Shown: positions 1 through 25,275, numbered from the stretch's first letter. The stretch: DNA of 27,962 nucleotides from a virus (IMGVR_UViG_2627853678_000006:1-27962), one strand, 5' to 3'. Translations and numbers: made by a program. Notes: generated from the letters alone by a model not told the origin.

Positions 1-1278
1 TTGAATAACCGCCTGTGTACTTGCTTTATCCAGAATATTCCGTCCAACGTTAGTCAGGGTTGTCAGGCTGGCTGTATCATTCCCCGTAAAATACGGAAGT
101 TTGTCTGCCGCAGTGGCAAGGCCTGCCAGTGCGGTCAGTGTGGCGTCGGCAGGTTGTTTTCCATTGGCAAGGTCATATACAGCCTTCACAGCTTTTGGTG
201 TGGCAGCCTGCGTTTCTGACGTGCTGTTAGTGGCGCTGCTGAGTTGCACGGTGCCTTTTACCGTCAGTGAAGCTGCAGGCACATCCGTTATCTGGCTCCA
301 CGGGTGCGTGTGACTGACAGGTGCCTTACCTGCTGCAAGGTCATATGCCGCCTTCACTGCCTTTGGTGTGGCAGCCTGCGTTTCTGACGTGCTGTTAGTG
401 GCACTGCTGAGTTGCACGGTGCCTTTTACCGTCAGTGAAGCTGCAGGCACATCCGTTATCTGATTCCACGGGTGTGTGTGACTGACAGGTGCCTTACCTG
501 CTGCAAGGTCATATGCCGCCTTCACTGCCTTTGGAGTGGCGGCCTGCGTTTCTGATGTGCTGTTAGTGGCGCTGCTGAGTTGCACAGTGCCTTTTACCGT
601 CAGCGAGGCTGCAGGTACACCTGTTATCTGATTCCACGGGTGTGTGTGACTGGCGGATGCTTTACCTGCTGCAAGATCATATGCAGCCTTCACAGCCTTC
701 GGTGTTGCGGCCAGTATTTCGGATTCACTGTTGGTCGCACTGCTTAACTGAGTAAAACCTTTTGCGGTCAGCGAGGCGTCCGGGTGACGTCGTGACTGTT
801 CGTGCTCTGATATTTTGTCATCCACATACTTGCGAGTTGCCAGTACTACAGCAGGGTCGATTTTCAGGGTGATATTGTCCGTACTGCTGGTAATCAGCAC
901 CATGCGCACGGTCTGGGTGCGCCCGCTGCCTTCAGCCAGTTGCGGTTTATAACTTTCCGGGCAGTTCCCCACGGCAATCAATGCCCCTGACTCATCAAAC
1001 AGGCCCACTTCACGTATCCACCAACCGCCCTCGTTTTCAGGGATCACCTGTTCAGCAATAATCTGGCTGCTGTTCTGCGGGTCGATATAGAGCATATTCA
1101 GCGCAGCCCGGCGTTTCTCATTTACCAGTGCAGTCTGCTTTGCGTCCGGCGTCGGCAATGCTCCGCCGCCATCGCCCACCGCCATATGGGTTATTTTTAG
1201 CGGCACACCAAGCGCGGCGGCGCTGGCAAGTTTCGCCGCGCCAATATCCGTCAGCAGGGTATAAAATTTTGTGCTCAT
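1..1278 (-). CDS. H: Tail fiber protein H, N-terminal part; gene runs off the left edge of the window
   Basis: Manual minus-strand translation from ATG at 1278 gives MSTKFYTLLTDIGAAKLA...MAVGDGGG...YVDDKISEHEQSRRHPDASLTAKGFTQLSSATNS...ATLTALAGLATAADKLPYFTGND, closely matching P2 gpH as I recall it. Frame is open to position 1. Start overlaps the stop of gene I (ATGA). Not in the ORF track because there is no stop inside the window. Confidence 0.85.
   Translation of the reverse strand, partial: MSTKFYTLLTDIGAAKLASAAALGVPLKITHMAVGDGGGALPTPDAKQTALVNEKRRAALNMLYIDPQNSSQIIAEQVIPENEGGWWIREVGLFDESGALIAVGNCPESYKPQLAEGSGRTQTVRMVLITSSTDNITLKIDPAVVLATRKYVDDKISEHEQSRRHPDASLTAKGFTQLSSATNSESEILAATPKAVKAAYDLAAGKASASHTHPWNQITGVPAASLTVKGTVQLSSATNSTSETQAATPKAVKAAYDLAAGKAPVSHTHPWNQITDVPAASLTVKGTVQLSSATNSTSETQAATPKAVKAAYDLAAGKAPVSHTHPWSQITDVPAASLTVKGTVQLSSATNSTSETQAATPKAVKAVYDLANGKQPADATLTALAGLATAADKLPYFTGNDTASLTTLTNVGRNILDKASTQAVIQ
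169..840. repeat. 168-bp tandem repeat inside tail fiber gene H: three near-identical copies (169-336, 337-504, 505-672) plus a diverged fourth (673-~840), in frame (56 aa per unit)
   Basis: Direct reading: the unit beginning aaggtcatat recurs at 169, 337, 505 and 673 with only a few mismatches between the first three copies. Each encodes the phage tail-fibre repeat (SLTVKGTVQLSSATNSTSETQAATPKAVKAAYDLAAGK...SHTHPW). Confidence 0.8.
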
Positions 1279-1880
1279 GGATTCACTCTCATTGTGTCAA
1301 TAACATGGACCGCCCCGCCTTCATGCGCGGTGCCGCCGGAAATAATTGTTTCGTTGATATACGGATAGATCGTGATTTCTTCGCCAAGATAGCTGGCGGC
1401 TCCCACCCAATGCGGGCCGCTGGTCTGCAGGTTGATGGACATGCCGCTCATGTGACGGCTACATGGTTTGGCATCGCTTATCAGTCGCTCAAGTTCCAGA
1501 TAGGTATCTTCAGTGATGCCCTGGTCCTGCACGCCGATATCCAGACGAAACGTGCCCGGTGCCTCTCCGGTCTGCCACCACTCAATAATGCGGATCAGAA
1601 AGCCGAACGGCTCCACCACCCGCCGCACGGCACTGGTGGTCCCTTTATGCTGATGAATATAAAAAGCATCCTTCACTACCTGGCGTTTGACGCTTTCTGT
1701 CCAGCCCTCGTCCCAGCGATCCACAGAGAACGCCCAGGCGAGATAAGGCAGGAAGCTGACCGGACAGGTAGCCGGATTCCACAAGTCACGCAGCAGCACC
1801 TGCAGATCAGAAATCCCACTGCAGGTTTGCGCCAGTCGTCGCTCCAGTGAAGTTGAACCCGGTGGTAGCAGACTATTCAT
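1275..1880 (-). CDS. I: Baseplate assembly protein I
   Basis: 201-aa ORF with the P2 gpI-like motif LWNPATCPVSFLPYLAWAFSVDRWDEGW. Lies between J and H with overlapping stop/start codons. Confidence 0.8.
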   Translation of the reverse strand: MNSLLPPGSTSLERRLAQTCSGISDLQVLLRDLWNPATCPVSFLPYLAWAFSVDRWDEGWTESVKRQVVKDAFYIHQHKGTTSAVRRVVEPFGFLIRIIEWWQTGEAPGTFRLDIGVQDQGITEDTYLELERLISDAKPCSRHMSGMSINLQTSGPHWVGAASYLGEEITIYPYINETIISGGTAHEGGAVHVIDTMRVNP

Positions 1881-2780
1881 CCGTTCCTCCGTTGGTCACG
1901 CTCCACTGCGAACATGATGCCGCCTGCGTTTTGTTCAGAACCACATCCGCCAGCGGAGAAGCCAGTTCCACACGTTGAACACCCTCAACATGCAGCGCGG
2001 CAAAGATGGCACTACGGCGAATATCCCGACCGAGCCGCGTCTGACTGGCGATGTACCTCTGCAGGCTGACTTTTGCCGCTGCCATTACCGGCTCTGCTTC
2101 CGGTCCCGGATAAAGAAAAATGGTGGCTTCCACACGGTACGGGATGATTTCTGCGCTGCGAACCGTCAGACGGTCAGCCACTGGGCGGACGTTCTCACTG
2201 TTCAGGCTTTCTCCACCACATCCAGCAAATCTTTTTCTGCTGTTCCGTCGCCTTCACGGCTCAGGATAGTCAGTACCACCTCTGCAGGTGCCGGACTGGT
2301 TGCACTGGCATCCGCCACCCGACCGTCGGCGCTTCGGGCATGAAATTCATAAGCGGCAGTTGGTCCCGCAACTGAAAGCCCCTCAAAGGCTGCAGGCACA
2401 CGCAGGCGTAACGCTTCATCGCTTTCCATCACTGCTGCAACGGGCGGCACAGCGTTATTATCAGCAGGCGTCACCGTCAGGCGTTTCACGTTGTAGTTGG
2501 CAGCGATCTGGTCAAGATCGCCGCCCATCGCGTAAGCCACCATTACCGCCTGCGCGGCTTCGTTAATGCGCTGGCGCAGAAGCAACTCACGGTAAGCGTT
2601 CTCCTGCAACAATTTGGTGACGGGTTCAGATTCCAGTTCCAGCGTGCGGATCACTGCTTCCTGCTCATCTTTCGGATGAAGCGCCACAAATTCTGCCTTG
2701 CGTTCGGCAAGCAGCGTCTCAAAGTCCGGCACATCCACAATCTGCGGTGCAGGCAACTGCGAAAGGTCAATCACTGCCAT
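1873..2780 (-). pseudogene. J: Baseplate assembly protein J, interrupted as sequenced by a -1 frameshift near 2202-2207
   Basis: ORFs 2202..2819 (true start MAVIDLSQLPAP at 2780) and 1873..2181 are the N- and C-terminal parts of one gpJ-like protein in different frames. Minus-strand junction reads gag aaa gcc tga; adding one base (e.g. gcc ctg) gives continuous ...LLDVVEKALNSENVRPVADRLTV... Combined length is about 302 aa, matching P2 gpJ. Confidence 0.8.
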
Positions 2781-3126
2781 TCTCTGCTCCTGTTGATACT
2801 GAAAGGGACACAGGCACACCGTTATTCCGCCGCCCGGTCAGCTCCACCACCATTGAACCGTCAAAATTGCTGTTAATAGTGATGGAATCCAGCGTCAGCC
2901 GTGGCTCCCAGCGACTCAGTGCCACATACACAGCCGACATAACCTGCAGGCGTAACGCCGGATTTTGTGGCTGATCTATCAGTGCCGACAGCAGGGAACC
3001 ATATTCCCGACGGGCAATGCGGCTACCCTGCGGCGTCAGCAGAATGTCCCGCACCGACTGGCGCAGGTGGTCAATATCAGTAATGGCTTTACCGCTGGTA
3101 TTGTTCATCCCGCTATAAAGCGTCAT
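2767..3126 (-). CDS. W: Baseplate protein W (gp25/GPW family)
   Basis: 119-aa ORF, size and position between V and J as in P2; sequence typical of GPW family (…ILLTPQGSRIARREYGS…). Confidence 0.8.
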   Translation of the reverse strand: MTLYSGMNNTSGKAITDIDHLRQSVRDILLTPQGSRIARREYGSLLSALIDQPQNPALRLQVMSAVYVALSRWEPRLTLDSITINSNFDGSMVVELTGRRNNGVPVSLSVSTGAENGSD

Positions 3127-3701
3127 ACCGGGCCTCCGGTTGTGTCGCCGCCTTTCAGGACGCCAGTATGCTGATGCGCATCAACCACGATCCCGTTAGA
3201 ACTCATCGCTCCGCCGCCCTGGGTAACGCCACCATTGATCACCACTTCGCTGTTAATGCGCGTGCGGTCAGCCTCCAGAACAAACTCACTGGTTTTCAGG
3301 GTGATGTTGCCAGCGGCCTCAATGACCATTGATTTGATGCCCCTGACATACCAGCGCCCGGTGGCGGGTTCGTATTCAAACCAGCCACCGTCAGGATGTT
3401 CTGTCACGCAGGCGTCCGCCGACGTCGACGGTGGCGCGAACTGATTCGAATAGATAGCGGGTAACGCAAAGGCTGTTTCCAGATTGCCGCCCAGACTAAG
3501 CAGCACCACCTGCTCACCTTCCGATGGTCGCCACCATGTGCGGGCATTCCCGGCACGCAGCGTCAGCCAGCTGATCCAGTTGGTTTCAAGCTCGCCCGTT
3601 TTCACCCGGCAAAGCCAGTTCTCCCGGTCCACTTCGGTGACTACCCCAGTGCGGATCAGGTTGGTGATAAGGCGCATGATTTCGGTTAGTTGTGCGTTCA
3701 T
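3123..3701 (-). CDS. V: Baseplate spike / central tail protein V
   Basis: ORF 3123..3809; chosen start is the internal ATG at 3699-3701 (MNAQLTEIMRLITNLIRTGVVTEVD), which aligns with the P2 gpV N-terminus. The 36-codon upstream extension looks non-native. No obvious Shine-Dalgarno at either start. Confidence 0.7.
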   Translation of the reverse strand: MNAQLTEIMRLITNLIRTGVVTEVDRENWLCRVKTGELETNWISWLTLRAGNARTWWRPSEGEQVVLLSLGGNLETAFALPAIYSNQFAPPSTSADACVTEHPDGGWFEYEPATGRWYVRGIKSMVIEAAGNITLKTSEFVLEADRTRINSEVVINGGVTQGGGAMSSNGIVVDAHQHTGVLKGGDTTGGPV

Positions 3702-3747
3702 AGGGTTAGGTTGCACGGACCTTGAATCTATGGCATCAATACGTCCT

Positions 3748-3765
3748 TGTGTGGTAAATGACACA
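3748..3765 (-). promoter_or_regulatory. TGT-N12-ACA dyad, candidate Ogr/Delta-type late-promoter activator site for the V-W-J-I-H operon
   Basis: tgt gtggtaaatgac aca read directly, centred about 55 bp upstream of the V ATG. P2-family late promoters carry this dyad upstream of the start site. Confidence 0.4.
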
Positions 3766-3796
3766 AATACAATTCCAATCGAAGAAAGGTAAAAGA

Positions 3797-4327
3797 ATGA
3801 GCCATCCAATTGATTATTACGCTATAGAAGAACACGCAAGAATAATTGAGCAATTATGCTGTTCATCTGAATTTTATTTACAGCGTATATATTCCACACA
3901 GAAAGTATATGATGGTTCTATAGTAACTGAATTTGAAATGGAGGAGTTATCGTACAACGGATGGTTGGAATATACCATTAGCAACAATCTTATTAGCCTT
4001 TGTACAAAACTACGAATTCTCCAAGACACTAATGAACATGAGTGGAACCCAGATTACTCACCTGAGAAAGAAGCATTTGAAGAACATGAAAATATACTTT
4101 TTGTTATAGATGGTCATGTTAAAGGTTCTATACGCGAATGCTGCAATAAAATTATTCACGCATTAAGTTTTGAGTTAACAAAAAAGACCGGCAAAAATGG
4201 AATAAAATATTGGGATGGTTCTATTATTGCTTCTGGGGTTCAAAACAAAAAAAACTGGAAAATTAAAATAGACCTTTTCCCTTTTTGCCAAAGCATAAAA
4301 AGTTATTTAAGTTTATTAAGTGCGTAA
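3797..4327 (+). CDS. Hypothetical protein, AT-rich moron antisense to the late tail operon
   Basis: ORF 3758..4327; preferred start ATG 3797 preceded by aaaggt. Visibly AT-rich versus flanking genes. No recognisable motif. Sits between S and the V late-promoter dyad, where I recall P2 orf30. Confidence 0.55.
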   Translation: MSHPIDYYAIEEHARIIEQLCCSSEFYLQRIYSTQKVYDGSIVTEFEMEELSYNGWLEYTISNNLISLCTKLRILQDTNEHEWNPDYSPEKEAFEEHENILFVIDGHVKGSIRECCNKIIHALSFELTKKTGKNGIKYWDGSIIASGVQNKKNWKIKIDLFPFCQSIKSYLSLLSA

Positions 4328-4332
4328 ACATT

Positions 4333-4785
4333 CTAATTTTTCATCAAAAAATACTTTAAAAGTAAATCTCTTACTTCATTTTCAGTATGTTCATTTAAAC
4401 CCAGCAATTTTCGGGATGGATACTTAATGACTCCCCCCTTTGGACTGACGCGATCGCGCAGGCCGTAATGATGAACGCGGGCAATGCGCTGCACCTTACC
4501 TTCAAACTGTACGCTGGCAGAATCCGCGCTGGCGGCGGTTTTCAGGTATTTTGTGGTGCGCAGCTTTGCAAACATCTGACGTTTGATGCGCCCTTTTTTA
4601 CTTCGTGCTGTTACCCGTCGCGGTTCATAGCTGCTGCCGTCAGGGTTGCGCTGCATCCTGATATTCTGCTGCTGTGTCCGGCGCAGTTCCTGCGCCAGCT
4701 GGCGCATCATGCGGCTTCTGGCGGCTGGTTCCAGATTCGCCAGCAAGGCACTCAGCCAGTCGTCCACTTTCTGCAGTTCAGCCAC
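4333..4785 (-). CDS. S: Tail completion protein S
   Basis: 150-aa ORF matching the size of P2 gpS, downstream of R with overlapping codons. Confidence 0.8.
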   Translation of the reverse strand: MAELQKVDDWLSALLANLEPAARSRMMRQLAQELRRTQQQNIRMQRNPDGSSYEPRRVTARSKKGRIKRQMFAKLRTTKYLKTAASADSASVQFEGKVQRIARVHHYGLRDRVSPKGGVIKYPSRKLLGLNEHTENEVRDLLLKYFLMKN

Positions 4786-5230
4786 GTTTCACCGTCCACA
4801 TTTCTTCAGGTTCATCGGGTTCCGCTACAGCTTCAACGCTCGACACACTGCCGTCAGTGCTGACCAGCACACGTTCCGTCAGTTGCAGGTTAAGGCTGAT
4901 ATCACAGACATCGTTGCGCAGAATATCCACCTCAAAGGTGAATAGTTTTTCCCGTAACGCCGGGTTATTGATGGCATCGGGCTGGTTATCCCTCAGCCAC
5001 AGCAAAACCGGGGCCATCAGCAGATTCTGGTCGCCGCTGAAATCCTCAATCACCGCGTTCAGTGTGTAACGGTACTCCCACGACATGGAGCTGGCCCCCG
5101 TGGCAACCAGCGAACCGTTATCCACAAACAGATGCAGTTTGTCCGGGTTATTGCGGACATAAGGCACCGCTTTATTGAGGGCGTGGCGCAGGGATTGTGG
5201 TTTGTTCACTGTTTCGCTCCTGACACGCAA
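4778..5230 (-). CDS. R: Tail completion protein R
   Basis: 150-aa ORF; motif FVDNGSL...YRYTLNAVIEDFSGD...LLWLRDNQPD resembles P2 gpR. Confidence 0.8.
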   Translation of the reverse strand: MRVRSETVNKPQSLRHALNKAVPYVRNNPDKLHLFVDNGSLVATGASSMSWEYRYTLNAVIEDFSGDQNLLMAPVLLWLRDNQPDAINNPALREKLFTFEVDILRNDVCDISLNLQLTERVLVSTDGSVSSVEAVAEPDEPEEMWTVKRG

Positions 5231-5462
5231 TAATCATGTCCACTTTGTCTGCACAGACCGCCCAGGCGGCCTCCGTTTCATCCAGCAACGCATTCAGATC
5301 ACCGTTAGTGCGTGGTGCTGCCTGCTCCAGCCGACACGGCGTCACTCGCGGACAACCACTGACGGTAAGCTGCACCTCCGGTGAGTGCCGGACGTTCCCG
5401 CAGCCGGATAATGTCAGCAGGCAAAGGAGTATCAGCCCAGTGGCGTAAATCCTCGTTCTCAC
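5172..5462 (-). CDS. lysC: o-spanin (LysC/Rz1-like outer-membrane lipoprotein)
   Basis: Signal peptide with lipobox (LLCLLTLSGC), Pro-rich. Begins inside lysB in another frame and extends past it, the P2 lysB/lysC arrangement. Confidence 0.6.
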   Translation of the reverse strand: MRTRIYATGLILLCLLTLSGCGNVRHSPEVQLTVSGCPRVTPCRLEQAAPRTNGDLNALLDETEAAWAVCADKVDMIIACQERNSEQTTIPAPRPQ

Positions 5463-5733
5463 GTTTCAGTTCCTCGATCCGGCGTTGTCGTTGTCTCAGC
5501 TGTACGCTGGTCTGTTCTGCTTCGGCATAGAGCCGCGCCTGCTCCCGGTTATTGGTTTCAGTCAGAATGGACAGGCTGATAAGCTGGCTGTTGCTCTTTG
5601 CCAGTGCCTGGCTTTTGCTCTGCAGCTTGTTTGCCTGCGTGCTGATGGTCTGGCTGGCATCAGCCAGCCGCCACGTCTGCCAGCCCAGCGCCGCCAGTAA
5701 TAACGCCAGCACAACCAGCAGCAACCGGTTCAT
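5305..5733 (-). CDS. lysB: i-spanin (LysB/Rz-like)
   Basis: N-terminal transmembrane helix (LLLVVLALLLAALGW) followed by a charged coiled-coil region (QRQRRIEELKRENEDLRHW); 142 aa. Confidence 0.7.
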   Translation of the reverse strand: MNRLLLVVLALLLAALGWQTWRLADASQTISTQANKLQSKSQALAKSNSQLISLSILTETNNREQARLYAEAEQTSVQLRQRQRRIEELKRENEDLRHWADTPLPADIIRLRERPALTGGAAYRQWLSASDAVSAGAGSTTH

Positions 5734-6107
5734 GCTGATACCTGTTGCGCCATCTGATTACGGGTCATCCAGAAGGCAATAACGGTCAGCAGATAAAAGA
5801 CCAGGGTAATAGCCCACCCCGTCCAGGCGAGACTTACAACAATCAGCAATCGCATCACCCAACTGGTAAATACATTTTCTTTTCGGGTAATTGTCTTCAG
5901 CAAAGATGCCCTTAACTCCTGCCAGAGCGGGCCATTCTTAATTAACGCAGCCAGTGCTACCGGAATTACCGCCCATGTCAGCAAACAGGCTACCCAAACG
6001 CCGGACGCTGACAGTACCGGAAAAATCCCCTGCGGATACACCATTGCTGCGATTAACAGCGCCATCCATAACATCAGAAATAGTCCGCTGATTAATTTCT
6101 TTTTCAT
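5730..6107 (-). CDS. lysA: LysA-like membrane protein (lysis timing)
   Basis: Multi-TM protein starting MKKKLISGLFLMLW at ATG 6105-6107. The longer ORF to 6179 adds 24 non-hydrophobic codons. Confidence 0.6.
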   Translation of the reverse strand: MKKKLISGLFLMLWMALLIAAMVYPQGIFPVLSASGVWVACLLTWAVIPVALAALIKNGPLWQELRASLLKTITRKENVFTSWVMRLLIVVSLAWTGWAITLVFYLLTVIAFWMTRNQMAQQVSA

Positions 6108-6108
6108 T

Positions 6109-6619
6109 TCAGTTTGCTCCCTGTAAACACCAGGCCATCTCCCGCGCACGGCGGTTATCCAGCCCCTGATTAAACACACCTTTTACATAAACCCAGCGCG
6201 GCAACTGTCGGCACGCATCCGCCCAGCGCCGCTGATTGAGCAATTTCACCAGCGTGGAACTACAGGCATTGCCCGTCCCCACGTTGAAGGCAAACGACAC
6301 CGTAGCGTCATACACCTTCTGTGGTGGCTGTTGCTTCACACACCTTTCCAGTGCCCGCTCCACACGCAGCACGTTGGAGATCAGCCTTCTGCTGCCTGTC
6401 GTTCCGTGATTGTTTTGCCGGGAATGACGCCCGATGTATTACCAATGCCGTCGGTCCAGACACCCGCGCTGCACTGATACGGCTGCAGACGACAGCCTCG
6501 TAATCGGCAATCAGTTTCAGCCCCTCCACGGAGGTGTGAAGCTGCTGAAAACCCGGCAGCGTGGCAGCAATAGCCAGCACGGCCCCGACAAGGCAGCGTT
6601 TAACGATTGATGGATTCAT
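6109..6619 (-). pseudogene. K: Endolysin (GH24 T4-type lysozyme with signal-anchor N-terminus), interrupted as sequenced by two -1 frameshifts
   Basis: Manual three-frame translation. Frame A from ATG 6619 gives MNPSIVKRCLVGAVLAIAATLPGF...LKLIADYE. The conserved core GCRLQPYQCSAGVWTDGIGNTSGVIPGKTITERQAAEG is in a second frame (about 6386-6496). LISNVLRVERALERCV...YDATVSFAFNVGTGNACSSTLVKLLNQ is in a third (ORF 6109..6372). Junctions at about 6493-6499 and 6382-6386 each lack one base in a short G/C run. Confidence 0.8.
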
Positions 6620-6815
6620 AGCCCTCCCGCGAGATCTGCCCGTCGCGCAGAAGCTGGTAGGCTTTGTGCTTGTAGTACCAGTTGATAGCCAGCATCAGCA
6701 CACCAATCATCAGGCCGCCCAGCGTTGAGGCATCCTTGATGGACAAATCGCCCAGCCAGGCCAGCACGACGGCGATGCAATACGTGATAAAGGTGCTGAT
6801 TCGCTCAAGCGTCAT
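6600..6815 (-). CDS. Y: Holin
   Basis: 71-aa ORF with two hydrophobic segments and a charged C-terminus, immediately upstream of the endolysin and downstream of X. Confidence 0.65.
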   Translation of the reverse strand: MTLERISTFITYCIAVVLAWLGDLSIKDASTLGGLMIGVLMLAINWYYKHKAYQLLRDGQISREGYESINR

Positions 6816-6818
6816 AAT

Positions 6819-7022
6819 TCAGTCCCATAGCTGGACGGTCTGCACGGTGGTGGTGGTCGGAATGTCCGGCAGCTCCACCTGCAGCCCGTGAGGTAAAAAG
6901 GGGCCGTATTCGGCAAGCCCCGGATTTGCCTTCAGTACCTGCTCCGTGACACCCTGCGTGCGCCCGTAATGACGCCAGCAAAGCGCGTCCACCGTGTCAT
7001 ACTGATGCGCACGCACTTTCAT
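6819..7022 (-). CDS. X: Tail protein X
   Basis: 67-aa ORF, same length as P2 gpX, between L and the holin. Confidence 0.8.
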   Translation of the reverse strand: MKVRAHQYDTVDALCWRHYGRTQGVTEQVLKANPGLAEYGPFLPHGLQVELPDIPTTTTVQTVQLWD

Positions 7023-7486
7023 CAGATAAGCTCCACTGTGCAGTGCGGCGCATCCTGTACCCGGCTGATGGCCCAGCGTGCGTCACGCCACAAATCACCG
7101 CTGGATTCCGCCAGTTCCTCGCCTCGCTTCACACCGGATGCCGTGGCGTCATAGTCCTGGTATCGTTCGTTGAGCATGGCGCGTGCCCAGCAGTAAACCG
7201 CGTTGAAATAGTGCTGAATGCGCTCACTTTTGCCGTCCAACTGTTCCGCCGGAACCTCAGCCAGCGACACATACCCCAGCATCTGCTGACGTCTGCGGAA
7301 CTCATACAGCTCTGCGTTGACCTCCGAAATTGCCGACAGCGCAACCTGCTTTAAACGCGGCTGCGTCACCGTGCCGTCAGTGCGCATGACACTGCGAAAC
7401 TCCGACAGGTCCACATCAGGCCAGAACGGCGTATTTCTGATGATTTCCGCCTGTTCCGGTGCCTGTTCTGGCGCAACAAACTTCAT
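7022..7486 (-). CDS. L: Head completion/stabilisation protein L
   Basis: Start taken at ATG 7484-7486 (MKFVAPEQ) with GGAG Shine-Dalgarno; the track ORF extends to 7549. Confidence 0.75.
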   Translation of the reverse strand: MKFVAPEQAPEQAEIIRNTPFWPDVDLSEFRSVMRTDGTVTQPRLKQVALSAISEVNAELYEFRRRQQMLGYVSLAEVPAEQLDGKSERIQHYFNAVYCWARAMLNERYQDYDATASGVKRGEELAESSGDLWRDARWAISRVQDAPHCTVELI

Positions 7487-7581
7487 GCTGCTTTCTCCTG
7501 AAATAGAGGGCGGTGGACGGGGTTTTGATGTGGCAGTGCCTTTCGCCACCCCGTGCCGCCCGTGCGCGGGGGCACGTTCTG

Positions 7582-8232
7582 TCAGCGGCTGTCATTGCGC
7601 AGTCTGCGCTCCAGCTGCTGTTTGTCTTTTTTCACGCCACAGCGGGGATCGAGCTGTAACGCATGGTTGAGATGATTAAGGGCGGAAGCCGGATTGCTTT
7701 CACTCAGGACAGCGCCAATCGCTTTATGCAGACGCGCCCGTGACTGGTCCGGCATATCCAGACCGTCTATCAGCTCCAGCGTCTGCAACAACAGATCGGC
7801 ATCAAAGCCGGTGGCGGCAAGCATTGCGCTCTGCGCGGCGTCTGCCATTTCCTCTGCCAGCACGGTCTGCACATTGCGGTTACCCAGTGGCATCACCCAG
7901 CCATGACGCAGGGCATGACGCCCGATCTCCAGCGCCCCGGCATAATCTCCGGCATCAATGCGCCACAGCATCACGTACATCAGTACGTCATCCTGTTGAG
8001 TGCCTCCGGCAGCCAGGACGCCCTCTGCCCAAGCGGCGTACTTCGGCAGCAGCTCCACCTTTATTTCCGCTTTTTTCACCGTGGACTGAACGCCCTTGAG
8101 ACGGCGGCGGTCTTCCGCCAGTTGCAGCAGCATCAGGTCATAGCCCGACGCGTGGCGAACACTGCCGCCCTCGCGGGCGGCCTGTTCAGCCTGAACGCGC
8201 AGGCGATGCTGCCGTGCGGGACTCAGGCTCAT
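7582..8232 (-). CDS. M: Terminase endonuclease (small) subunit M
   Basis: 216-aa ORF directly after capsid gene N, P2 gpM position. Confidence 0.75.
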   Translation of the reverse strand: MSLSPARQHRLRVQAEQAAREGGSVRHASGYDLMLLQLAEDRRRLKGVQSTVKKAEIKVELLPKYAAWAEGVLAAGGTQQDDVLMYVMLWRIDAGDYAGALEIGRHALRHGWVMPLGNRNVQTVLAEEMADAAQSAMLAATGFDADLLLQTLELIDGLDMPDQSRARLHKAIGAVLSESNPASALNHLNHALQLDPRCGVKKDKQQLERRLRNDSR

Positions 8233-8235
8233 GGG

Positions 8236-9294: not shown

Positions 9295-9310
9295 CAGGTT
9301 TTGTGCTCCA

Positions 9311-13128: not shown

Positions 13129-15465
13129 TTACAAATATGTGTTGCTATGTAGAGATGTGTTTATTCCATCTTTTATCTCAATTTTTGACGAAGCATACTC
13201 ATCATTCGCACTATCATCTATATCAAACTCATCTTGTAGATGAAGTGACTCATTTAACGGTTTATAAAACTCACCCATCATCATTTTGTAATGGGCAGTA
13301 TGCTCACTACATTCAAATATCTTCTGAAAAACAATTAAATATTTTTGCACAGACTCCGTATCTAAATTCATATAAAGATCATCACCTGCAAAATGGGAAC
13401 CATCATTAATCCATGACACTAAAGATTTAAATATGATTTTTTCATCACCATAAAAATGACACTCAAGCTTCCTAATATCCATCCCACCTAATATCTTAAA
13501 GTAATTCTCCAAAATCCTTCGCATTGTATTTTGTATAGTATTATTATTAATGTCTGTTCTTCTCAATTCGCACCAGAGCAAATCATAAGACGTTTTTATT
13601 GGGTTTGATTCGCACTTTTCAAGATATGAAACCTTCCCTTTTTTCCTTACAATCCAAAAAGTCTCCTCTTTCATTGCTTGATTACCGGATCTTTTGGTAT
13701 TAAAAGTCAACTCTTTATGAAAATAAATATTATGAGTAAGGAATATAATTTGCTTAATATTTCCTTCATCCTTACGAACATCCTCCATTAAATCTTTAAT
13801 CAACGAACTTACAATAAACAGAATATCACTATCTAAACTTGAAATTGGATCATCAAATACTACAACACGATCATCTAAAACACCTGATGCATTATCACTC
13901 CCTCTAACAAGGCTATAAAAGTACAAAAAAGTGATAAATGTCTTTTCTCCCTCACTAAGGGTTGTACGAGCATTATCTCCACTATCTCTTACTATCATAT
14001 AATGCTTTTTATCTTCGGAGGGTTTTAAGTAAAAATTTTTGAAGCCATAAGAGTCCAGAATCTTGTTAATTTTTGTAATAGTTGGAAGAGTACTGGTTTT
14101 ATTAGACTCAATTGCCTCAATAGCCGAAGTATTTAACATTAACTTCTTTTTGTCTTCTTCTATCCCAGATTTAAGTCCTTGTAACGTCCTATTAAATTTA
14201 TCAGATTTGCTACGGTAAGAAGTTATTTCAGACTTTAACTCCACCTTTACGATATATGCCCATATCTGCTTAGAAAGATTACTAGCCTCTACCTTTCTAT
14301 TACTATATATTTTGTTATTATTATCTATCAATAGATTTGAATCATTCAAAAAAGAAATAAAATCATCAACAACTTCACTTAAGTCACTAAAATGAACTGA
14401 TTCACTTAAAAAATTGCGTTTATTTTTTGCCAATTCAAAATTCTTGTTTAATTCAGATAATACTATCTTAGCCTTATCCTCAAACACTTCATAATTTATG
14501 AATGGAGATTTAATCGCCCTTATATCATCTATCGCCTTCAAGATATTATTAAGTTGATATTCATATTGTAAAACCAATGCATCGATTTCTCTTTTTTTTA
14601 ACTCATATGTTTTATCAAAATATGATGAAAGATTATCAAATATATTATCATTTACATCCTGCTGGCAGAATGGGCACTTGGGATTAGATTTGCTGAAATA
14701 TGTTAAACCCTCCTTAACCCAATCACTGTTATTGAGCATTGTAATTAAGTCTGAAACACTAACGTCTTTTTTCCCTAGAATACGCTCACTCCAAATTTCC
14801 CTACTTAAAATATCATCTATCCCATTGAAGGATGGAATTGTAATTGATACATGTGATGTCAATTCAGTAGAAAAAACAATTTTTGCTTTCTCAATTAACT
14901 CTGCTATTGAGCAAACTTCTGATGTATTATTTTCATACTCAGCCAACACTCTGGCTTTAAATTTTTCACTACTATTCCTTAATCCCTCAAAAGCCTTTGA
15001 GAACACATTGTCATGTTTTACTTTTTGCTTCCAACATGAATCTTTAAAAGATTTTTCATGGTCTTCGATTTTTTTAATAACGCCTAATTCATTATCACCA
15101 CCATCTATTAACTTTCCCTTTGCTATAATAGATTCCATTAGCTTATTTTTTTCTTCTTTAAGAGATATTAGTTTCTCTTCATCCTCCTTAAGATCGCTAC
15201 CAAGGGTAAATACACCTTTAATTTTATCTTGACTAAAATTTCTTTCAACAAAATCTTTATTATATACGTAGCTTATTAAAGATATATTATTTTTCCATTT
15301 AATCGGACATGTTGGATATTGTTCAGGGTCATTAATAATTTTACTTATAGTTGTTTTACCTGCACCATTAGCTCCATATAAATAGTTAAATTTAGAAAGT
15401 CCATGTAAAAGCTGCGTAGGGCCATTATATGAGCCTACCTTGTCAATAACTACCTCTTCAATCAT
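13129..15465 (-). CDS. RloC/PrrC-like anticodon-nuclease-type protein: ABC ATPase with coiled-coil zinc hook and C-terminal nuclease-like domain (function inferred)
   Basis: 778-aa AT-rich ORF with GAGG Shine-Dalgarno. Walker A GANGAGKTT at the N-terminus, CPFC zinc-hook motif in a long Lys/Glu-rich predicted coiled coil, LSEGEK signature, Walker B VVVFDDPISSLD, H-loop FLTHN, then about 200 aa containing R-x3-E (RRILENYF) and downstream His residues reminiscent of the PrrC catalytic triad. Confidence 0.55.
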   Translation of the reverse strand: MIEEVVIDKVGSYNGPTQLLHGLSKFNYLYGANGAGKTTISKIINDPEQYPTCPIKWKNNISLISYVYNKDFVERNFSQDKIKGVFTLGSDLKEDEEKLISLKEEKNKLMESIIAKGKLIDGGDNELGVIKKIEDHEKSFKDSCWKQKVKHDNVFSKAFEGLRNSSEKFKARVLAEYENNTSEVCSIAELIEKAKIVFSTELTSHVSITIPSFNGIDDILSREIWSERILGKKDVSVSDLITMLNNSDWVKEGLTYFSKSNPKCPFCQQDVNDNIFDNLSSYFDKTYELKKREIDALVLQYEYQLNNILKAIDDIRAIKSPFINYEVFEDKAKIVLSELNKNFELAKNKRNFLSESVHFSDLSEVVDDFISFLNDSNLLIDNNNKIYSNRKVEASNLSKQIWAYIVKVELKSEITSYRSKSDKFNRTLQGLKSGIEEDKKKLMLNTSAIEAIESNKTSTLPTITKINKILDSYGFKNFYLKPSEDKKHYMIVRDSGDNARTTLSEGEKTFITFLYFYSLVRGSDNASGVLDDRVVVFDDPISSLDSDILFIVSSLIKDLMEDVRKDEGNIKQIIFLTHNIYFHKELTFNTKRSGNQAMKEETFWIVRKKGKVSYLEKCESNPIKTSYDLLWCELRRTDINNNTIQNTMRRILENYFKILGGMDIRKLECHFYGDEKIIFKSLVSWINDGSHFAGDDLYMNLDTESVQKYLIVFQKIFECSEHTAHYKMMMGEFYKPLNESLHLQDEFDIDDSANDEYASSKIEIKDGINTSLHSNTYL

Positions 15466-15835: not shown

Positions 15836-16837
15836 ATGGGTGGAGAGACTTCGGCTATACAACGAGTCGCGGGTAAGATTTCTGATGATATTTTCTCAGT
15901 GTTCAAATGGGATCGTGCCGCTAGAGCGGACATGAATTGGGATTGTTGCCAAGAGGCTCATTCCAAGAAAACACATCCAAGCGATGTTGTATTTTTCTAC
16001 ATAGATCCATATGAGGAGGAAATGGTCTATCTCAACACAGACCTCAAAAGCTATGCAGAAGGTACTATTGGGAAAAAAATAGTCGAGGGAGCTTTAACAT
16101 CGCTTGCTTTAGCTACCGAATGTGCAAATGTCAGTGAAGAATGGCGATTGAAATATGTTCATGATGATTCTTTAGGTTATAACGTAAGAGGGTTATTATT
16201 CTTATATAACCATGATAATTTATATGATAAAGACTTCTATGAGAATATTACAAAAAAATTAGATCACTCATCTATAAATTGCCCTCCAAACATCAAACTA
16301 CATTTGCTTGACCCTTATAAAATATCAGATTTGATAAACATATCTTCTGACATAACTAAGTTAATTGGTTCAGGAAAACTTCCTCAACCTGATAAGTTCA
16401 CATATTATTATCCAGATCTTTCCCTAACAAGAATAAAGCACCCTATTAATCAGACAACACCTGCAACAATTGAATTATTAACATCACCATACATTATAAT
16501 AAAGCATGAGGCTTTCAGTTGGCTCAGGGATAAAAACCCTGAGGGATATGTTGTTTATTACAATCAACCGGGGGATTCAGTAGACGAATTCGTTTACTTC
16601 TTTGATATGTTATCAACTTATCAGATATTAACCGAAGGTAAACCAATCGTATTACGCCATTGTCACATTCACCCAAATGAAAATGCCATTCATCATTTTG
16701 AAAGAGCGAAAAAGAAATACAGCACAGACTGGCTCTTAGGCGAGGATGAAAGACTTTTTCTTAAAATTGACTTCGACAAGACAGACAAAATTGTTGTTGA
16801 ATATAATCTTGAACAAATCGGCATGGAGCAACGATAA
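15836..16837 (+). CDS. Hypothetical protein, first gene of three-gene operon; possible PD-(D/E)xK-like motif
   Basis: 333-aa AT-rich ORF with AGGAG Shine-Dalgarno. Contains VVFFYID-x11-TDLK and a His-rich stretch RHCHIHPNENAIHH. Stop overlaps the next start (TAATG). Confidence 0.75.
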   Translation: MGGETSAIQRVAGKISDDIFSVFKWDRAARADMNWDCCQEAHSKKTHPSDVVFFYIDPYEEEMVYLNTDLKSYAEGTIGKKIVEGALTSLALATECANVSEEWRLKYVHDDSLGYNVRGLLFLYNHDNLYDKDFYENITKKLDHSSINCPPNIKLHLLDPYKISDLINISSDITKLIGSGKLPQPDKFTYYYPDLSLTRIKHPINQTTPATIELLTSPYIIIKHEAFSWLRDKNPEGYVVYYNQPGDSVDEFVYFFDMLSTYQILTEGKPIVLRHCHIHPNENAIHHFERAKKKYSTDWLLGEDERLFLKIDFDKTDKIVVEYNLEQIGMEQR

Positions 16838-17916
16838 TGGCTAAAAAACTATATTTCGCAACTGATAAAAATATTTATGATGCATTACATCATAAAAGGA
16901 TAACCGCTGCAAAGTTGCATGAATTATTGTTGAATCGAGGTGTGTTTTTATCACCAGAACTCGACAAGGAAATACTAATCGAGGAAATATCCAAACTTCC
17001 TCACGGATTTAATGAATTAGAACACATAAAAAAACTGGTCAAAACATATGACCCAAGGGAAAGCACTACTAGTGTGAGCTTCCAAACCTCAACAAATCAG
17101 GCCGAATTAAAAAGTGCTGCTGAAGCACTAAAAAAAACATGCTCCCCTAGTAAAGGTCAAAGCCTGAATATTGTAGCTAAAAAAGATGGCTCGCTTACAG
17201 TAGAATACAAATATGAAGAAATAGACCTGTCTAAAACTGCATTACGTCAGATCGACAAGCGGAATGTTATAATAGAACTTCGCCCTGGAGCTGACAAAGT
17301 TGAAGTACGTATGCCTCAAAACCCCGAGGCAAAAAAAGTTATTGAGAGCTTGCAAAACGAGCTATCTAAAATCAAGTCCGAACCTATCGAGCGCTTCGAA
17401 ATATCATTACTAGCAATAACTGATCCTACATTGCGAAGTCAGTTTTTTCAGGAATTAATGAATGGTCTACGCGGTTATGAGACTGATGACGTAACAAAAG
17501 TCGAATTAAATCGCAGTACTGATGCTAGTGAGGATGAAGACAAGGAAGAAACTATTGATACCGGATTTGTTAAGAAAGCCGTCCTTAATGGTGAAGGGGT
17601 AAATAGTTCAGCTATATTTTCTCAACTACATGAGAAAGGTTATTATATCGGGCGTATTGCATGGTCTTCAAAGCCGACAAGTGGAATTGGAGACAGAATC
17701 AACGTCGAAGCATTTTTCAAAGACTCAGAAAAATGCTGTGACTTTGCCTATCAAATTAAAGGTATAAACAATCAAAAAGAAGACGGTTTCAATGTAACCA
17801 TTCGCGCGGCAACAGCACAAGAGAAAAAACATATTAGTGAATTAATTGAGTCCGCCGCTGAAAATGCCTATAATATAATAATAGGATCAGAGGTGAACGA
17901 AGATGAAAAAGGTTAA
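16837..17916 (+). CDS. Hypothetical protein, second gene of three-gene operon
   Basis: 359-aa ORF, translationally coupled on both sides; acidic central linker (STDASEDEDKEE). No motif I can name. Confidence 0.75.
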   Translation: MAKKLYFATDKNIYDALHHKRITAAKLHELLLNRGVFLSPELDKEILIEEISKLPHGFNELEHIKKLVKTYDPRESTTSVSFQTSTNQAELKSAAEALKKTCSPSKGQSLNIVAKKDGSLTVEYKYEEIDLSKTALRQIDKRNVIIELRPGADKVEVRMPQNPEAKKVIESLQNELSKIKSEPIERFEISLLAITDPTLRSQFFQELMNGLRGYETDDVTKVELNRSTDASEDEDKEETIDTGFVKKAVLNGEGVNSSAIFSQLHEKGYYIGRIAWSSKPTSGIGDRINVEAFFKDSEKCCDFAYQIKGINNQKEDGFNVTIRAATAQEKKHISELIESAAENAYNIIIGSEVNEDEKG

Positions 17917-18586
17917 ATGGCTTAAGTTAAACATACGGCTTGAGTTTGAAACAGCCGTTAGACGTCTTTCTCTTGATTCTTTTACAGAGGATAAAGGGAA
18001 AGGGTTCATTTTTGATAAAATACGCCATGATTTTGCAAATGGTCGCTTTGTCGAGCGTATTGTTTATCATGATAAAATATTAAGCTTTGACGGAAGCGAA
18101 ACTACCGTTGAAAGAATCGAATATCGCACCACAAATTTTAGCGTGGCTTTAGACTCTCTTCCTGTAATGCAGATTACTAACCCACCCAGAACTTTAAAGC
18201 CTTTTTCGCAGGCTTTGGTAAAAAATCTTGGCTTAGGTGTTAGTTTGGAAGAAATTGACATAAACCCTATAGACTGGCTTAATGAAATATCTTCAAGTGT
18301 AAATATCAATTTAACACAACTTGATATTTCAAGGGTTAGAGTTTCTGATTACGCCACAGCTAAAATGCAAATAATTGGCAGCAATGATCTTAGGAAGTAT
18401 TATAAAGAAGAATTAGAGGGTAAAAAAATAAGAATTGACAGGCTTGTTTGCTCTGTTAATTCATTAGAATATTCCGGTAAGCTCAAGATCACCAATAGCG
18501 GCCTTGCTTATATTGATGTTAGAAATGAGAATGAGTTTACGAAAATCGTTTTTGATACGTTAAAAAAAGTCACCCTTCAATCATAG
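17903..18586 (+). CDS. Hypothetical protein, third gene of three-gene operon
   Basis: 227-aa ORF overlapping the previous gene by 14 nt; followed by a strong hairpin. Confidence 0.75.
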   Translation: MKKVKWLKLNIRLEFETAVRRLSLDSFTEDKGKGFIFDKIRHDFANGRFVERIVYHDKILSFDGSETTVERIEYRTTNFSVALDSLPVMQITNPPRTLKPFSQALVKNLGLGVSLEEIDINPIDWLNEISSSVNINLTQLDISRVRVSDYATAKMQIIGSNDLRKYYKEELEGKKIRIDRLVCSVNSLEYSGKLKITNSGLAYIDVRNENEFTKIVFDTLKKVTLQS

Positions 18587-24705: not shown

Positions 24706-25275
24706 GTGACCATGAATTTGGAAAAAGGCGGTCGTGGGGCCATAGAGCGCATGGTTGAAGCCTATGGTTTCAAGACAAGACAAGCTTTGTGTGATCATTT
24801 GGGCATTTCTAAAAGCACCTTAGCCACGCGCTATATGCGTGATTCATTCCCGGCAGAATGGGTAATCCAATGTGCACTTGAAACCGGCACGTCGCTAGAG
24901 TGGCTAACTACTGGGCAAGGTTCAAAAGAAAGTTCACAAAAAGAAAACACAAAAGAGATCGAAAGGAAGATTTTATCAAGCGGAAAACTACTTCCTGATG
25001 GTTACTACATTTTCGACAACAACTTTTTGCCTGAAAAACTAAAAAAACCTTTTGTTGTGATCGATGGCGCATCAGAGTTTATCTGTGATTCGGATTATGA
25101 GGATGTACGTGATGGTAAGTGGATCGTTGATATTGATGGCGAGGTTGCTATCAGGAATCTGACAAGACTGCCGGGACGTCGTCTAAATGTCGATGGTGGC
25201 AGCAGTTCCTTTGAATGCAAAATAGATGAAATTGATATCATAGGAAAAATTAGAAGCGCGATCGTCAATTATTAA
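24706..25275 (+). CDS. cI: CI immunity repressor (186-type)
   Basis: 189-aa ORF (186 CI about 192 aa) with N-terminal HTH-like region (...[43 protein letters not shown]); divergent from apl and upstream of int. Confidence 0.75.

What the first reader, a model, noticed from the sequence alone, without database searches (positions are those of the whole stretch)
3758..4327. Antisense AT-rich moron wedged between tail gene S and the V late promoter
A 176-aa ORF of foreign composition lies on the opposite strand inside the late morphogenetic gene block, convergent with S (ends 6 nt apart) and starting beside the TGT-N12-ACA dyad of the V promoter. It would be expressed independently of the late operon and against its transcription. 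I recall P2 carrying a nonessential orf30 at this S/V position, so this may be a second exchangeable cargo site. Function is unknown.
Basis: partly seen in the sequence, partly recalled or inferred. Interest (0 to 1): 0.5.

Follow-up and report, generated by a model that had tools for sequence, protein, structure and literature searches.

The report
Orphan cargo gene in P2 tail-gene hotspot
A small AT-rich gene of unknown function sits backwards between two tail genes of a P2-like E. coli prophage, at a swap site where related phages carry anti-phage defence genes, so it is a reasonable but unproven candidate for a new single-gene defence protein.

Summary
A 176-aa ORF (window 3797-4327, +) of about 32% G+C lies antisense between gpV (3123-3701, -) and gpS (4333-4785, -). 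Its stop codon is 5 nt from the S stop, and its start is 32 nt beyond the TGT-N12-ACA dyad of the V promoter (3748-3765).

It is a real gene:
- dN/dS is 0.10 against the Salmonella orthologue.
- The family has at least 482 clusters.
- The AlphaFold model is confident (pLDDT 90).
- Published LF82 RNA-seq shows the 98%-identical orthologue transcribed in the lysogen while the flanking late genes are silent.

It is cargo at the classical P2 orf30 site. Close relatives have an empty junction, or carry AbiU-like, SIR2, TIR, GmrSD, AriA/GajA-like ATPase, FRG or DUF6216 genes, or P2 orf30. The junctions are the same in every case. The swapped 734-bp module also carries the V promoter region and the last ~34 codons of S.

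The protein matches nothing in Pfam, NCBIfam, PADLOC or PDB sequences. It has a near-invariant R-E-x-C-N-K-I-I-H-A motif. Distant homologues are single-ORF integron cassettes in Vibrionales.

Best guess: a stand-alone prophage defence effector, possibly a divergent HEPN-like RNase. Function is inferred, not shown. The site is known; the gene family is uncharacterised.

The parts
3123..3701 (-). gpV baseplate spike gene (192 aa), conserved left flank of the swap site
   Evidence: Pfam Phage_base_V plus Apex. Matches Cartapus gp15. Homology with empty-site and other-cargo relatives runs up to 3701-3714.
3702..4435 (.). Exchangeable AT-rich module (734 bp): V promoter region, cargo gene and 3' end of S
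   Evidence: blastn against 8 loci with an empty site or other cargo loses homology at 3701-3714 and regains it at 4436-4463. G+C is 0.30-0.40 inside and about 0.58 outside.
3748..3765 (.). TGT-N12-ACA dyad, presumed Ogr/Delta-type activator site of the late V promoter
   Evidence: Exact match. Position relative to the V ATG is invariant in 9 cassette types. Its centre is 55.5 nt from the V ATG, the same distance as from the centre of the annotated P2 pV activator-binding site to the P2 V start. Binding was not tested.
3768..3773 (+). Candidate -10 hexamer TACAAT for the cargo gene; its -35 would overlap the dyad
   Evidence: Read by eye. The consensus scan found no + strand promoter. Inference only.
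3784..3789 (+). Shine-Dalgarno-like GAAAGG, 7 nt before the ATG at 3797
   Evidence: Sequence.
3797..4327 (+). Cargo gene: 176-aa soluble acidic protein, uncharacterised family with an R-E-x-C-N-K-I-I-H-A motif (R113...H121)
   Evidence: dN/dS 0.10. AF2 pLDDT 90.2. Orthologue transcribed in the LF82 lysogen.
4333..4435 (-). Last ~34 codons of gpS, carried by the module (G+C 0.305); the sequence differs with every cargo type
4436..4785 (-). Conserved N-terminal ~116 codons of gpS (tail completion / virion morphogenesis), right flank of the swap site
   Evidence: Pfam Phage_tail_S, E 6.8e-42. About 95% DNA identity to relatives with other cargo.

Best explanation
The ORF is a horizontally exchanged accessory gene (moron) at the orf30 site of a P2-like prophage. 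This site is the gap between the operon that ends with S and the V operon.

How it moves. It travels as a 734-bp module that also brings a V promoter region (keeping the activator dyad) and a replacement C-terminus for gpS. The module is swapped by recombination in the conserved V gene and the conserved 5' two-thirds of S.

Expression. The gene is transcribed on its own at a low level in the lysogen, against the direction of the silent late genes.

Likely function. It acts alone, without a partner gene, most probably as a prophage-encoded anti-phage defence effector. The conserved polar cluster (R73, D77, R113, E114, N117, K118, H121) suggests an enzyme. The best single guess is a divergent HEPN-like, metal-independent RNase that is activated on infection and aborts it.

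Self-protection. When the prophage itself goes lytic, two things would turn the gene off: activator binding to the dyad that overlaps its putative promoter, and convergent read-through from the upstream late operon.

Shown: gene reality, optional and exchangeable status, module boundaries, independent transcription of the orthologue, and stand-alone occurrence elsewhere.

Inferred: the defence role, the RNase chemistry and the shut-off logic.
For: Real gene:
- dN/dS 0.10 against the Salmonella orthologue at the same site.
- 482 family clusters at E<=1e-3.
- AF2 pLDDT 90.2, pTM 0.87.

Exchangeable:
- Empty site in phage 500465-1 and Klebsiella 4LV2017-type phages.
- In a spread sample of 1,069 matching E. 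coli records, about half the informative rows are empty. The rest carry AAA ATPase, AIPR, TIR, SIR2, P-loop NTPase, GmrSD, DUF6216, FRG or assorted hypotheticals.
- Six of these were verified to lie exactly between V and S.
- The junctions recur.

Defence context:
- 6 of 8 alternative cargos hit PADLOC models: AbiU, PDC-S25/ThsA-like, NsnA/PD-T4-2_A, AriA/GajA-like, PDC-S15 and PDC-S66.
- The window's other variable sites hold PDC-S06 plus Hp1-3, and PDC-S20.

Transcription: LF82 RNA-seq.

Stand-alone unit:
- All 17 IMG/VR homologues sit beside gpV; gpS was detected convergent in 15, one contig is cut short, and in one divergent phage gpS was not detected. No second inserted gene was seen where this was checked.
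- The Aliivibrio and Pseudoalteromonas homologues are single-ORF cassettes flanked by attC-like repeats.
- Integron cassettes are reported to encode phage defence (abstracts listed).

Enzyme and HEPN hint:
- R73, R113, N117, K118 and H121 are at least 95% conserved over 129 sequences.
- In the model H121 ends a short helix, which is where the HEPN histidine sits (PMC3710099).
Against: - No defence phenotype has been measured.
- No member of the family matches any PADLOC, Pfam or NCBIfam model.
- Foldseek finds nothing in the PDB or BFVD libraries (E >= 0.1).
- The R-to-H spacing is 7, outside the Rx4-6H definition. Cys occupies the canonical Arg position.
- hhalign against a DUF4145 (HEPN clan) alignment gives 0.6% probability.
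- Location in a hotspot is only association. Two cargos at this site (P2 orf30, DUF6216) have no defence link, and P2 hotspots also hold non-defence genes (PMC9122126).
- No consensus promoter or terminator was detected.
- The LF82 authors did not call the orthologue a moron, because it was near background in overnight LB culture.
Confidence: 0.5

Rival explanations
1. It is a defence or exclusion protein that works through a mechanism unrelated to HEPN RNases. Examples are a nucleotide- or NAD-directed enzyme, a sensor or decoy that binds an incoming phage protein, or an inhibitor of a host factor that other phages need.
For: The hotspot and integron context is the same as for the best explanation. 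There is no sequence-level HEPN signal. Foldseek finds no fold match. The C-terminal half is a beta-meander plus helix that is not part of a HEPN core.
Confidence: 0.2
2. It is a lysogenic-conversion or stress-response gene that benefits host physiology rather than blocking phages. One possibility is a dormancy-inducing RNase, as was proposed for integron-cassette HEPN proteins.
For: In LF82 the orthologue is higher in the DMEM and macrophage samples than in overnight LB. Anantharaman et al. proposed a stress and dormancy role for integron HEPN cassettes (PMC3710099). Distant homologues lie in chromosomal islets with no obvious defence neighbours.
Against: Most identifiable cargo at the same phage site is defence-type. 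One distant homologue has a SIR2_2 gene nearby. No physiological phenotype is known.
Confidence: 0.12
3. It is a counter-defence gene or a gene that benefits the phage, for example an inhibitor of a host immune system or of the P4 satellite, used by the P2-like phage during its own infection.
For: Phage variable regions also hold anti-defence genes (PMC9122126 introduction). The protein is small, acidic (pI 5.4) and soluble, as many anti-defence proteins are. It sits beside a late promoter.
Against: It is transcribed in the lysogen while the lytic genes are silent. Late transcription runs against it. Homologues occur as bacterial integron cassettes and chromosomal genes outside phages. The near-invariant catalytic-type motif is unusual for stoichiometric inhibitors. 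Anti-defence genes were found to be rare in P2-like phages (28 of 1,511; PMC13586616).
Confidence: 0.08
4. It is the toxin of an addiction (toxin-antitoxin) module that stabilises the prophage or the integron array.
Against: No partner ORF exists. The cassette between attC sites holds this ORF only. The phage module has 5 nt after the gene and about 95 nt before it. Neighbours differ in every context. No Rfam RNA was found in the module.
Confidence: 0.05
5. It is not a functional gene, but a chance ORF or a decaying remnant in AT-rich junk DNA.
For: There is no functional annotation anywhere; all 193 cluster members are 'hypothetical'. No consensus promoter or terminator was found.
Against: dN/dS is 0.10 with near-saturated synonymous sites. 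The probability of the open frame is about 3e-7. There are 482 homologous clusters across phyla sharing an invariant motif. The AF2 model is confident. The orthologue is transcribed.
Confidence: 0.01

Closest known systems
P2 orf30 and the 'orf30 region' of P2-like phages (Nilsson and Haggard-Ljungquist; cited in PMC3091744 and PMC6823313)
   Same: The position is the same: between S and the pV activator site. The orientation is antisense, the content is a single gene, and the gene is nonessential and variable between relatives.
   Different: The protein is unrelated (BLASTP E 0.24) and shorter (176 aa against 261 aa). P2 has an annotated 37-nt terminator between S and orf30, whereas here only 5 nt separate the two stop codons.
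P2-like prophage defence hotspots: the TO region (old/tin; gpA-gpQ) and Z/fun (Rousset 2022, PMC9122126; Vassallo 2022, PMC9519451; Moura de Sousa 2026, PMC13586616)
   Same: A small locus between two conserved phage genes, AT-rich, with rapid turnover and cargo dominated by known or candidate defence genes. The 2026 study mentions defence loci 'within the tail genes' and 'downstream of GpL'.
   Different: This is a different locus, not adjacent to cos. Every example seen holds a single gene. The swapped unit includes part of an essential gene (the S 3' end) and an essential promoter. The papers read here did not resolve or analyse this site on its own.
HEPN superfamily, especially the integron-cassette HEPN (PDB 3jrt) and stand-alone Abi HEPN proteins (Anantharaman 2013, PMC3710099)
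   Different: The Arg is 7 residues before the His and Cys occupies the canonical Arg position. A three-stranded beta-meander is inserted before the last helix. There is no Pfam HEPN hit in 129 members, no profile match to DUF4145 and no Foldseek hit.
Integron gene cassettes that encode phage defence (bioRxiv 10.1101/2024.07.02.601719; PMC12614218)
   Same: Distant homologues (39-45% identity) in Aliivibrio and Pseudoalteromonas are single promoterless ORFs bounded by attC-like repeats.
   Different: The window copy is not in an integron and has no attC. It moves by homologous exchange within a phage genome. No member of this family is known to have been tested.

Membership tests
Accessory (moron) cassette at the P2-like S-V / orf30 site | Lies between the tail-completion gene S and the baseplate gene V, outside both late transcription units | tested here: met
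   gpS is at 4333-4785 (PF05069) and gpV at 3123-3701 (PF04717). The layout is the same as P2 S / terminator / orf30 / activator site / V.
Accessory (moron) cassette at the P2-like S-V / orf30 site | Absent from, or replaced in, close relatives (not part of the core genome) | tested here: met
   Empty junction in phage 500465-1 and many Klebsiella phages. The gene is present in 22 of 5,426 E. coli genomes, while related prophage DNA is present in 1,063. Other cargos were verified at the same site.
Accessory (moron) cassette at the P2-like S-V / orf30 site | Base composition deviates from the phage backbone | tested here: met
   G+C is 0.32 against 0.58.
Accessory (moron) cassette at the P2-like S-V / orf30 site | Transcribed autonomously in the lysogen | tested here: met
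   Published strand-specific RNA-seq of the 98%-identical LF82 orthologue CARTA_14 gives 4.4-6.0 log2(fpkm+5), against mostly 2.3-3.6 for its neighbours. It was near background in overnight LB. This strain itself was not measured, and the promoter is not mapped.
HEPN superfamily | Four-helix up-down bundle core | tested here: inconclusive
HEPN superfamily | Rx4-6H motif at the end of helix 3, with a polar residue after the R (PMC3710099) | tested here: not met
   The motif is R113-E-C-C-N117-K-I-I-H121, which is Rx7H. N-x3-H fits the distal half, and H121 does end the helix. However, the canonical Arg position is Cys in 108 of 129 sequences.
HEPN superfamily | Detectable sequence or profile relationship to an established HEPN family | tested here: not met
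   No HEPN Pfam model is hit by any of the 129 members at E<=1. hhalign against a 44-sequence DUF4145 alignment gives probability 0.6%. The profile finds no PDB chain. Only one HEPN family was tested by profile-profile comparison.
HEPN superfamily | Metal-independent RNase activity that depends on the motif His | not testable with these tools
   Needs biochemistry.
Known or candidate anti-phage defence systems (PADLOC-DB 2.0) | Match to a curated defence protein model | tested here: not met
   No hits for the protein. Across 129 family members there are only scattered single weak hits.
Known or candidate anti-phage defence systems (PADLOC-DB 2.0) | Located in a locus enriched for defence genes | tested here: met
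   6 of 8 alternative cargos at this site hit PADLOC models. The other variable loci of the same prophage carry PDC-S06, Hp1-3 and PDC-S20.
Known or candidate anti-phage defence systems (PADLOC-DB 2.0) | Protects cells or populations from phage infection | not testable with these tools
   Needs plaque and liquid-infection assays.
Type II toxin-antitoxin module | Conserved adjacent partner gene | tested here: not met
   The gene is a single ORF in the phage module, in the integron cassette and in varied chromosomal contexts.

The most novel reading that the evidence does not exclude
The 176-aa protein founds a new family of stand-alone, single-gene anti-phage effectors. It would be a HEPN-derived RNase whose catalytic arginine has moved one helical turn (R-x3-N-x3-H) and which carries a beta-meander insert. 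The family would be shared between two unrelated gene-shuffling platforms: the S-V hotspot of P2-like phages and Vibrionales chromosomal integrons. In addition, the S-V hotspot would swap cargo together with an essential promoter and the tail of an essential gene, and the cargo's antisense placement over the activator site would give built-in shut-off during the phage's own lytic cycle.
Probability: 0.25. Interest if true: 0.6.

Novelty: new member of a known kind. Interest (0 to 1): 0.45.

Why it matters
The TO and Z/fun hotspots of P2-like prophages have already yielded many new immune systems. The S-V (orf30) site has been known as variable since the 2000s, but the defence literature read here does not analyse it on its own.

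This work shows four things about the site:
- In E. coli it holds a series of single-gene cargos, most of them defence-type.
- The cassette junctions recur at the same positions.
- Each cassette brings its own V promoter region.
- Each cassette brings its own gpS C-terminus.

The gene in this window belongs to a family of several hundred sequence clusters with no annotation in any library searched. It has a strikingly invariant motif and also occurs as an integron cassette. That makes it a cheap, well-defined candidate for a defence screen: one 531-bp gene and three obvious point mutants. If it is active, it adds a compact effector and possibly a new HEPN variant. If it is not, the site is still a ready-made list of candidates.

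Tried and rejected
Searches that found nothing:
- Pfam, NCBIfam and PADLOC scans of the protein and of 129 family members gave nothing consistent.
- PHROGs gave only phrog_18838, of unknown function.
- PDB sequence searches with the single protein and with the profile gave nothing.
- Foldseek against the PDB and BFVD libraries gave nothing below E 0.1.
- The afdb50 library was unavailable.
- An Rfam scan of 3500-4700 found nothing.
- The promoter and terminator scan found no + strand promoter and no terminator.

Tests that came out negative:
- Profile-profile comparison with DUF4145 (HEPN clan). I tried this because the Cartapus DUF4145 protein shows a similarly spaced K-x3-N-x3-H. Probability was 0.6%, so a specific DUF4145 relationship is rejected.
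- Homology to P2 Orf30 is rejected.
- I asked whether the LF82 'moron' LF82_789 was this gene. It is not; it lies in the TO region. The orthologue is LF82_787/CARTA_14, which the authors did not call a moron.
- TGT-N12-ACA as a statistically enriched motif in the window is rejected (5 found, 7.4 expected). Only its conserved position carries weight.
- An Ogr-activated divergent promoter for the cargo gene is unlikely. A start 55 nt from the dyad centre on the + strand would fall at about 3812, downstream of the ATG.

Technical dead ends:
- The search for related loci with the 129-sequence alignment failed because no stretch was conserved enough. It was repeated with the 17-sequence alignment.

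Full report
**1. What is there**

The window is a P2-like (Peduoviridae) prophage of E. coli, read with its late genes on the minus strand. It is 100% identical over the region to E. coli ECamp52 and 97% identical to phage Cartapus of strain LF82.

- gpV (baseplate spike; PF04717 plus Apex) occupies 3123-3701.
- gpS (tail completion; PF05069) occupies 4333-4785.
- Between them, on the plus strand, is an ORF that ends at 4327.

The first ATG of the ORF, at 3758, gives 189 aa, but it lies inside the V-promoter dyad. The ATG at 3797 gives 176 aa and is the real start. It is preceded by GAAAGG. It is the start shared by nearly all homologues (M-S-H-P...). The Salmonella orthologue has a TTG start at the same position. 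The finding's coordinates therefore describe the 189-aa reading and its text describes the 176-aa gene.

G+C is 0.32 in the gene and 0.58 in V and in most of S. Five nucleotides separate the two convergent stop codons. The dyad TGTGTGGTAAATGACACA lies at 3748-3765.

**2. Is it more than chance, and is it a gene?**

- With the local base composition, an open frame of 176 codons has a probability of about 3e-7.
- Against the Salmonella orthologue at the same site (74% aa identity), dN/dS is 0.10 with synonymous sites near saturation.
- A word-indexed search found 17 relatives. An exhaustive profile search found 482 clusters at E<=1e-3, nearly all single-domain proteins of 170-200 aa.
- AlphaFold2 with the 17-sequence alignment gave pLDDT 90.2 and pTM 0.87.
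- Published strand-specific RNA-seq of LF82 (PMC9928086, S1 Table) lists the 98%-identical orthologue CARTA_14/LF82_787. Its log2(fpkm+5) values are 5.1-6.0 in the B1 and B6 samples, 4.4-5.3 in the MB1 and MB6 (macrophage) samples, and 3.5 and 2.7 in overnight LB.
- In the same table V, W, J, S and R stay at 2.3-3.6, apart from V in MB6 (4.3 and 4.1). The CI repressor is at 8.0-9.3 outside LB. The table legend says the data cover LB, DMEM and macrophage conditions. That B1 and B6 are the DMEM samples is my reading.

So the gene is transcribed weakly but independently of the late genes. The authors' moron threshold (five-fold over background in LB) was not reached.

The TGT-N12-ACA pattern by itself is not enriched in the window (5 found, 7.4 expected). 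Its meaning comes from position. It is at the same distance from the V ATG in nine different cassette types. Its centre is 55.5 nt from the V ATG, the same distance as from the centre of the annotated 28-nt pV activator-binding site to the V start in P2.

**3. The site**

- Phage 500465-1, about 30 Klebsiella phages and many E. coli prophages have S and V 68 nt apart with no gene between them.
- Salmonella phage SEN8 has an antisense 311-aa FRG-domain gene there.
- P2 has the antisense, nonessential orf30. It is unrelated to the present protein.

A 3.5-kb query found related DNA in 1,063 of 5,426 complete E. coli genomes. In an evenly spaced sample of 60 records, about half of the informative ones are empty and two carry this gene. 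The rest carry an AAA ATPase, an AIPR protein, TIR, SIR2, a P-loop NTPase, GmrSD, DUF6216, FRG or hypotheticals of several sizes.

I checked six of these loci. The cargo is always a single gene exactly between V and S. It is antisense in five and co-oriented in one, the TIR gene. Of eight alternative cargos, six hit PADLOC models: AbiU, PDC-S25/ThsA-like, NsnA/PD-T4-2_A, AriA/GajA-like, PDC-S15 and, weakly, PDC-S66.

The present gene occurs in 22 E. coli genomes. All 17 IMG/VR contigs that encode a relative (57-99% identity) have it beside gpV. In 15 of them gpS was detected convergent with it. The same holds for the Enterobacter and Salmonella orthologues.

**4. The swapped unit**

blastn of window 3000-5000 against eight loci with an empty site or other cargo loses homology at 3701-3714, the V start codon. 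It regains homology at 4436-4463, inside S at about codon 113-116 (alignment). The exchangeable module is therefore 3702-4435 and contains three things.

- The V promoter region. The spacer between the V ATG and the dyad differs with each cassette, while the dyad is kept.
- The cargo gene.
- The last ~34 codons of S. These are AT-rich here (0.305). They encode a different gpS C-terminus for every cargo type while keeping a loose pattern (...YP/A-x-R-x-LLG...).

Recurrent junctions in conserved flanks point to homologous recombination between co-resident P2-like genomes as the exchange route. That is an inference. No intrinsic terminator lies between S and the cargo gene, unlike in P2.

**5. 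The protein**

It is soluble and acidic (pI 5.4, no hydrophobic segment).

Over 129 family members the nearly invariant residues are R73, R113, N117, K118, H121, G147 and W154. D77, E114, C116 and H3 are also strongly conserved. The signature is R-E-x-C-N-K-I-I-H-A.

The model has two long helices (7-34, 45-78), an insert with a short helix and a strand, a short helix (112-120) that carries the motif and ends at H121, a three-stranded beta-meander (124-159) and a C-terminal helix (160-175).

No library recognises the family. This covers Pfam, NCBIfam and PADLOC for all 129 members, PDB sequences and Foldseek on the PDB and BFVD libraries. All source names are 'hypothetical protein'.

- 1jog, 1wwp, 8xdj, 6nlt, 4ebj and 9dun_D lower down (PMC3710099).

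Some features fit the published description of HEPN. The His is at the end of helix 3, there is an insert between helices 2 and 3, and a conserved polar residue lies four residues before the His. The Rx4-6H definition is not met, because the spacing is 7 and Cys sits at the canonical Arg position. A profile-profile test against DUF4145 was negative. I treat 'HEPN-like' as a lead, not a classification.

**6. Context outside phages**

Relatives at 39-45% identity occur in Aliivibrio, Vibrio, Pseudoalteromonas, a Chloroflexia MAG and a Dokdonia MAG.

- In Aliivibrio the gene is one cassette of an integron array. It is a single ORF with its own GGAG, bounded by ~130-nt attC-type repeats (...TAACAAA...GCGTTAT...) that recur ten times in 10 kb.
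- In Pseudoalteromonas it is flanked by a shorter attC-like repeat pair.
- Other homologues sit alone among unrelated genes, in an AlpA-containing islet, or next to the capsid gene of a small capsid/portal/primase element.

No partner gene is conserved. The protein must work alone and cannot be constitutively toxic.

**7. Mechanism, with status**

Shown:
- The gene is an optional, exchangeable single-gene module at an operon boundary.
- Its orthologue is transcribed in the lysogen.
- The protein has a conserved, enzyme-like motif.
- The gene is mobile as a solitary unit on two different platforms.

Inferred, at about 0.5-0.6: it is an anti-phage defence gene, on the basis of what else occupies this site and the other variable sites of the same prophage.

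Inferred, at about 0.3: it is a HEPN-derived RNase acting by abortive infection.

Speculative: its promoter (candidate -10 TACAAT at 3768-3773) overlaps the activator dyad. Binding of the Ogr-type activator, together with read-through from the operon that ends in S, would then silence it when the prophage itself enters late development.

**8. Comparison with the literature**

The orf30 position was listed with the TO and Z regions as a place where P2-like phages carry horizontally acquired genes (PMC3091744). Variation there was also noted for phage R18C (PMC6823313).

The defence-hotspot papers analysed gpA-gpQ (PMC9122126) and Z/fun (PMC9519451; bioRxiv 10.1101/2024.10.15.618418). The 2026 survey mentions defence loci 'within the tail genes' and 'downstream of GpL' without finer resolution (PMC13586616).

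The site is therefore known. Three points did not appear in the papers read: its defence-rich single-gene cargo series in E. coli, the co-transfer of the gpS tail and the V promoter, and this protein family.

**9. Verdict**

The gene is a new, uncharacterised member of the cargo set at a known variable site. It is a plausible but untested single-gene defence candidate. Interest is moderate.

Noticed in passing
window 13129-18586: The classical TO hotspot between portal and gpA is AT-rich (G+C 0.29-0.39). It holds a 778-aa AAA_13 ATPase that matches PADLOC PDC-S06 (13129..15465, -). It also holds three + strand genes that match Hp1, Hp2 and Hp3 end to end (15836..18586).
   Followed up: partly
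window 25487-26827: An AT-rich 446-aa KAP-family P-loop NTPase (PADLOC PDC-S20) lies between the CI repressor (24706..25275) and the integrase (26910..). This is a further cargo site in the same prophage.
   Followed up: partly
window 4333-4435 (gpS 3' end) and loci L002, L003, L014-L019: The last ~34 codons of the essential gene S belong to the swapped module. They have G+C 0.305, against 0.578 for the rest of S, and encode a different C-terminal tail for every cargo type. The first ~113 residues are nearly identical. Whether the tail is functionally neutral is unknown.
   Followed up: partly
window 3699-3765; P2 record 10239-10308 (L020): The V ATG is 55.5 nt from the dyad centre, both here and in P2. 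The P2 record places the V transcription start at the V start codon. No Shine-Dalgarno sequence precedes the V ATG (CCTAACCCTATG on the coding strand). This hints at a leaderless or very short-leader V mRNA.
   Followed up: no
L025 (Aliivibrio sp. S4MY1) 1-10534: This is a chromosomal integron array with ten attC-type repeats of about 130 nt and several duplicated ~300-nt cassettes. The homologue of the window protein is one cassette (5001-5546).
   Followed up: partly
L014 (E. coli GN02461) 1479-2279: The TIR-domain cargo at the S-V site is co-oriented with the late genes. All other cargos examined are antisense.
   Followed up: no
L018 (E. coli ECONIH1) 2254-2312: The annotated DUF6216 cargo gene overlaps the 3' end of gpS by 59 nt on the opposite strand.
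   Followed up: no
window 23520-24332 (-): One 270-aa ORF matches both the CII/CP76 regulator (residues 10-145) and the phage 186 Fil protein (residues 177-230) in a single frame. This could be a fusion, or two genes merged by the mechanical ORF call.
   Followed up: no
window 21679-22596 (-): A D12-class N6-adenine DNA methyltransferase (Dam-like; PF02086, E 8.6e-77) lies just after the replication gene gpA.
   Followed up: no
L013 (LF82 Cartapus) 17983-18596 and the LF82 RNA-seq table: Cartapus differs from the window in its TO region. It carries a DUF4145 (HEPN-clan) protein with the sequence K-D-D-G-N-D-G-A-H, followed by LF82_789. Both rise strongly in macrophage samples (log2 values up to 9.6 and 10.5).
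   Followed up: partly
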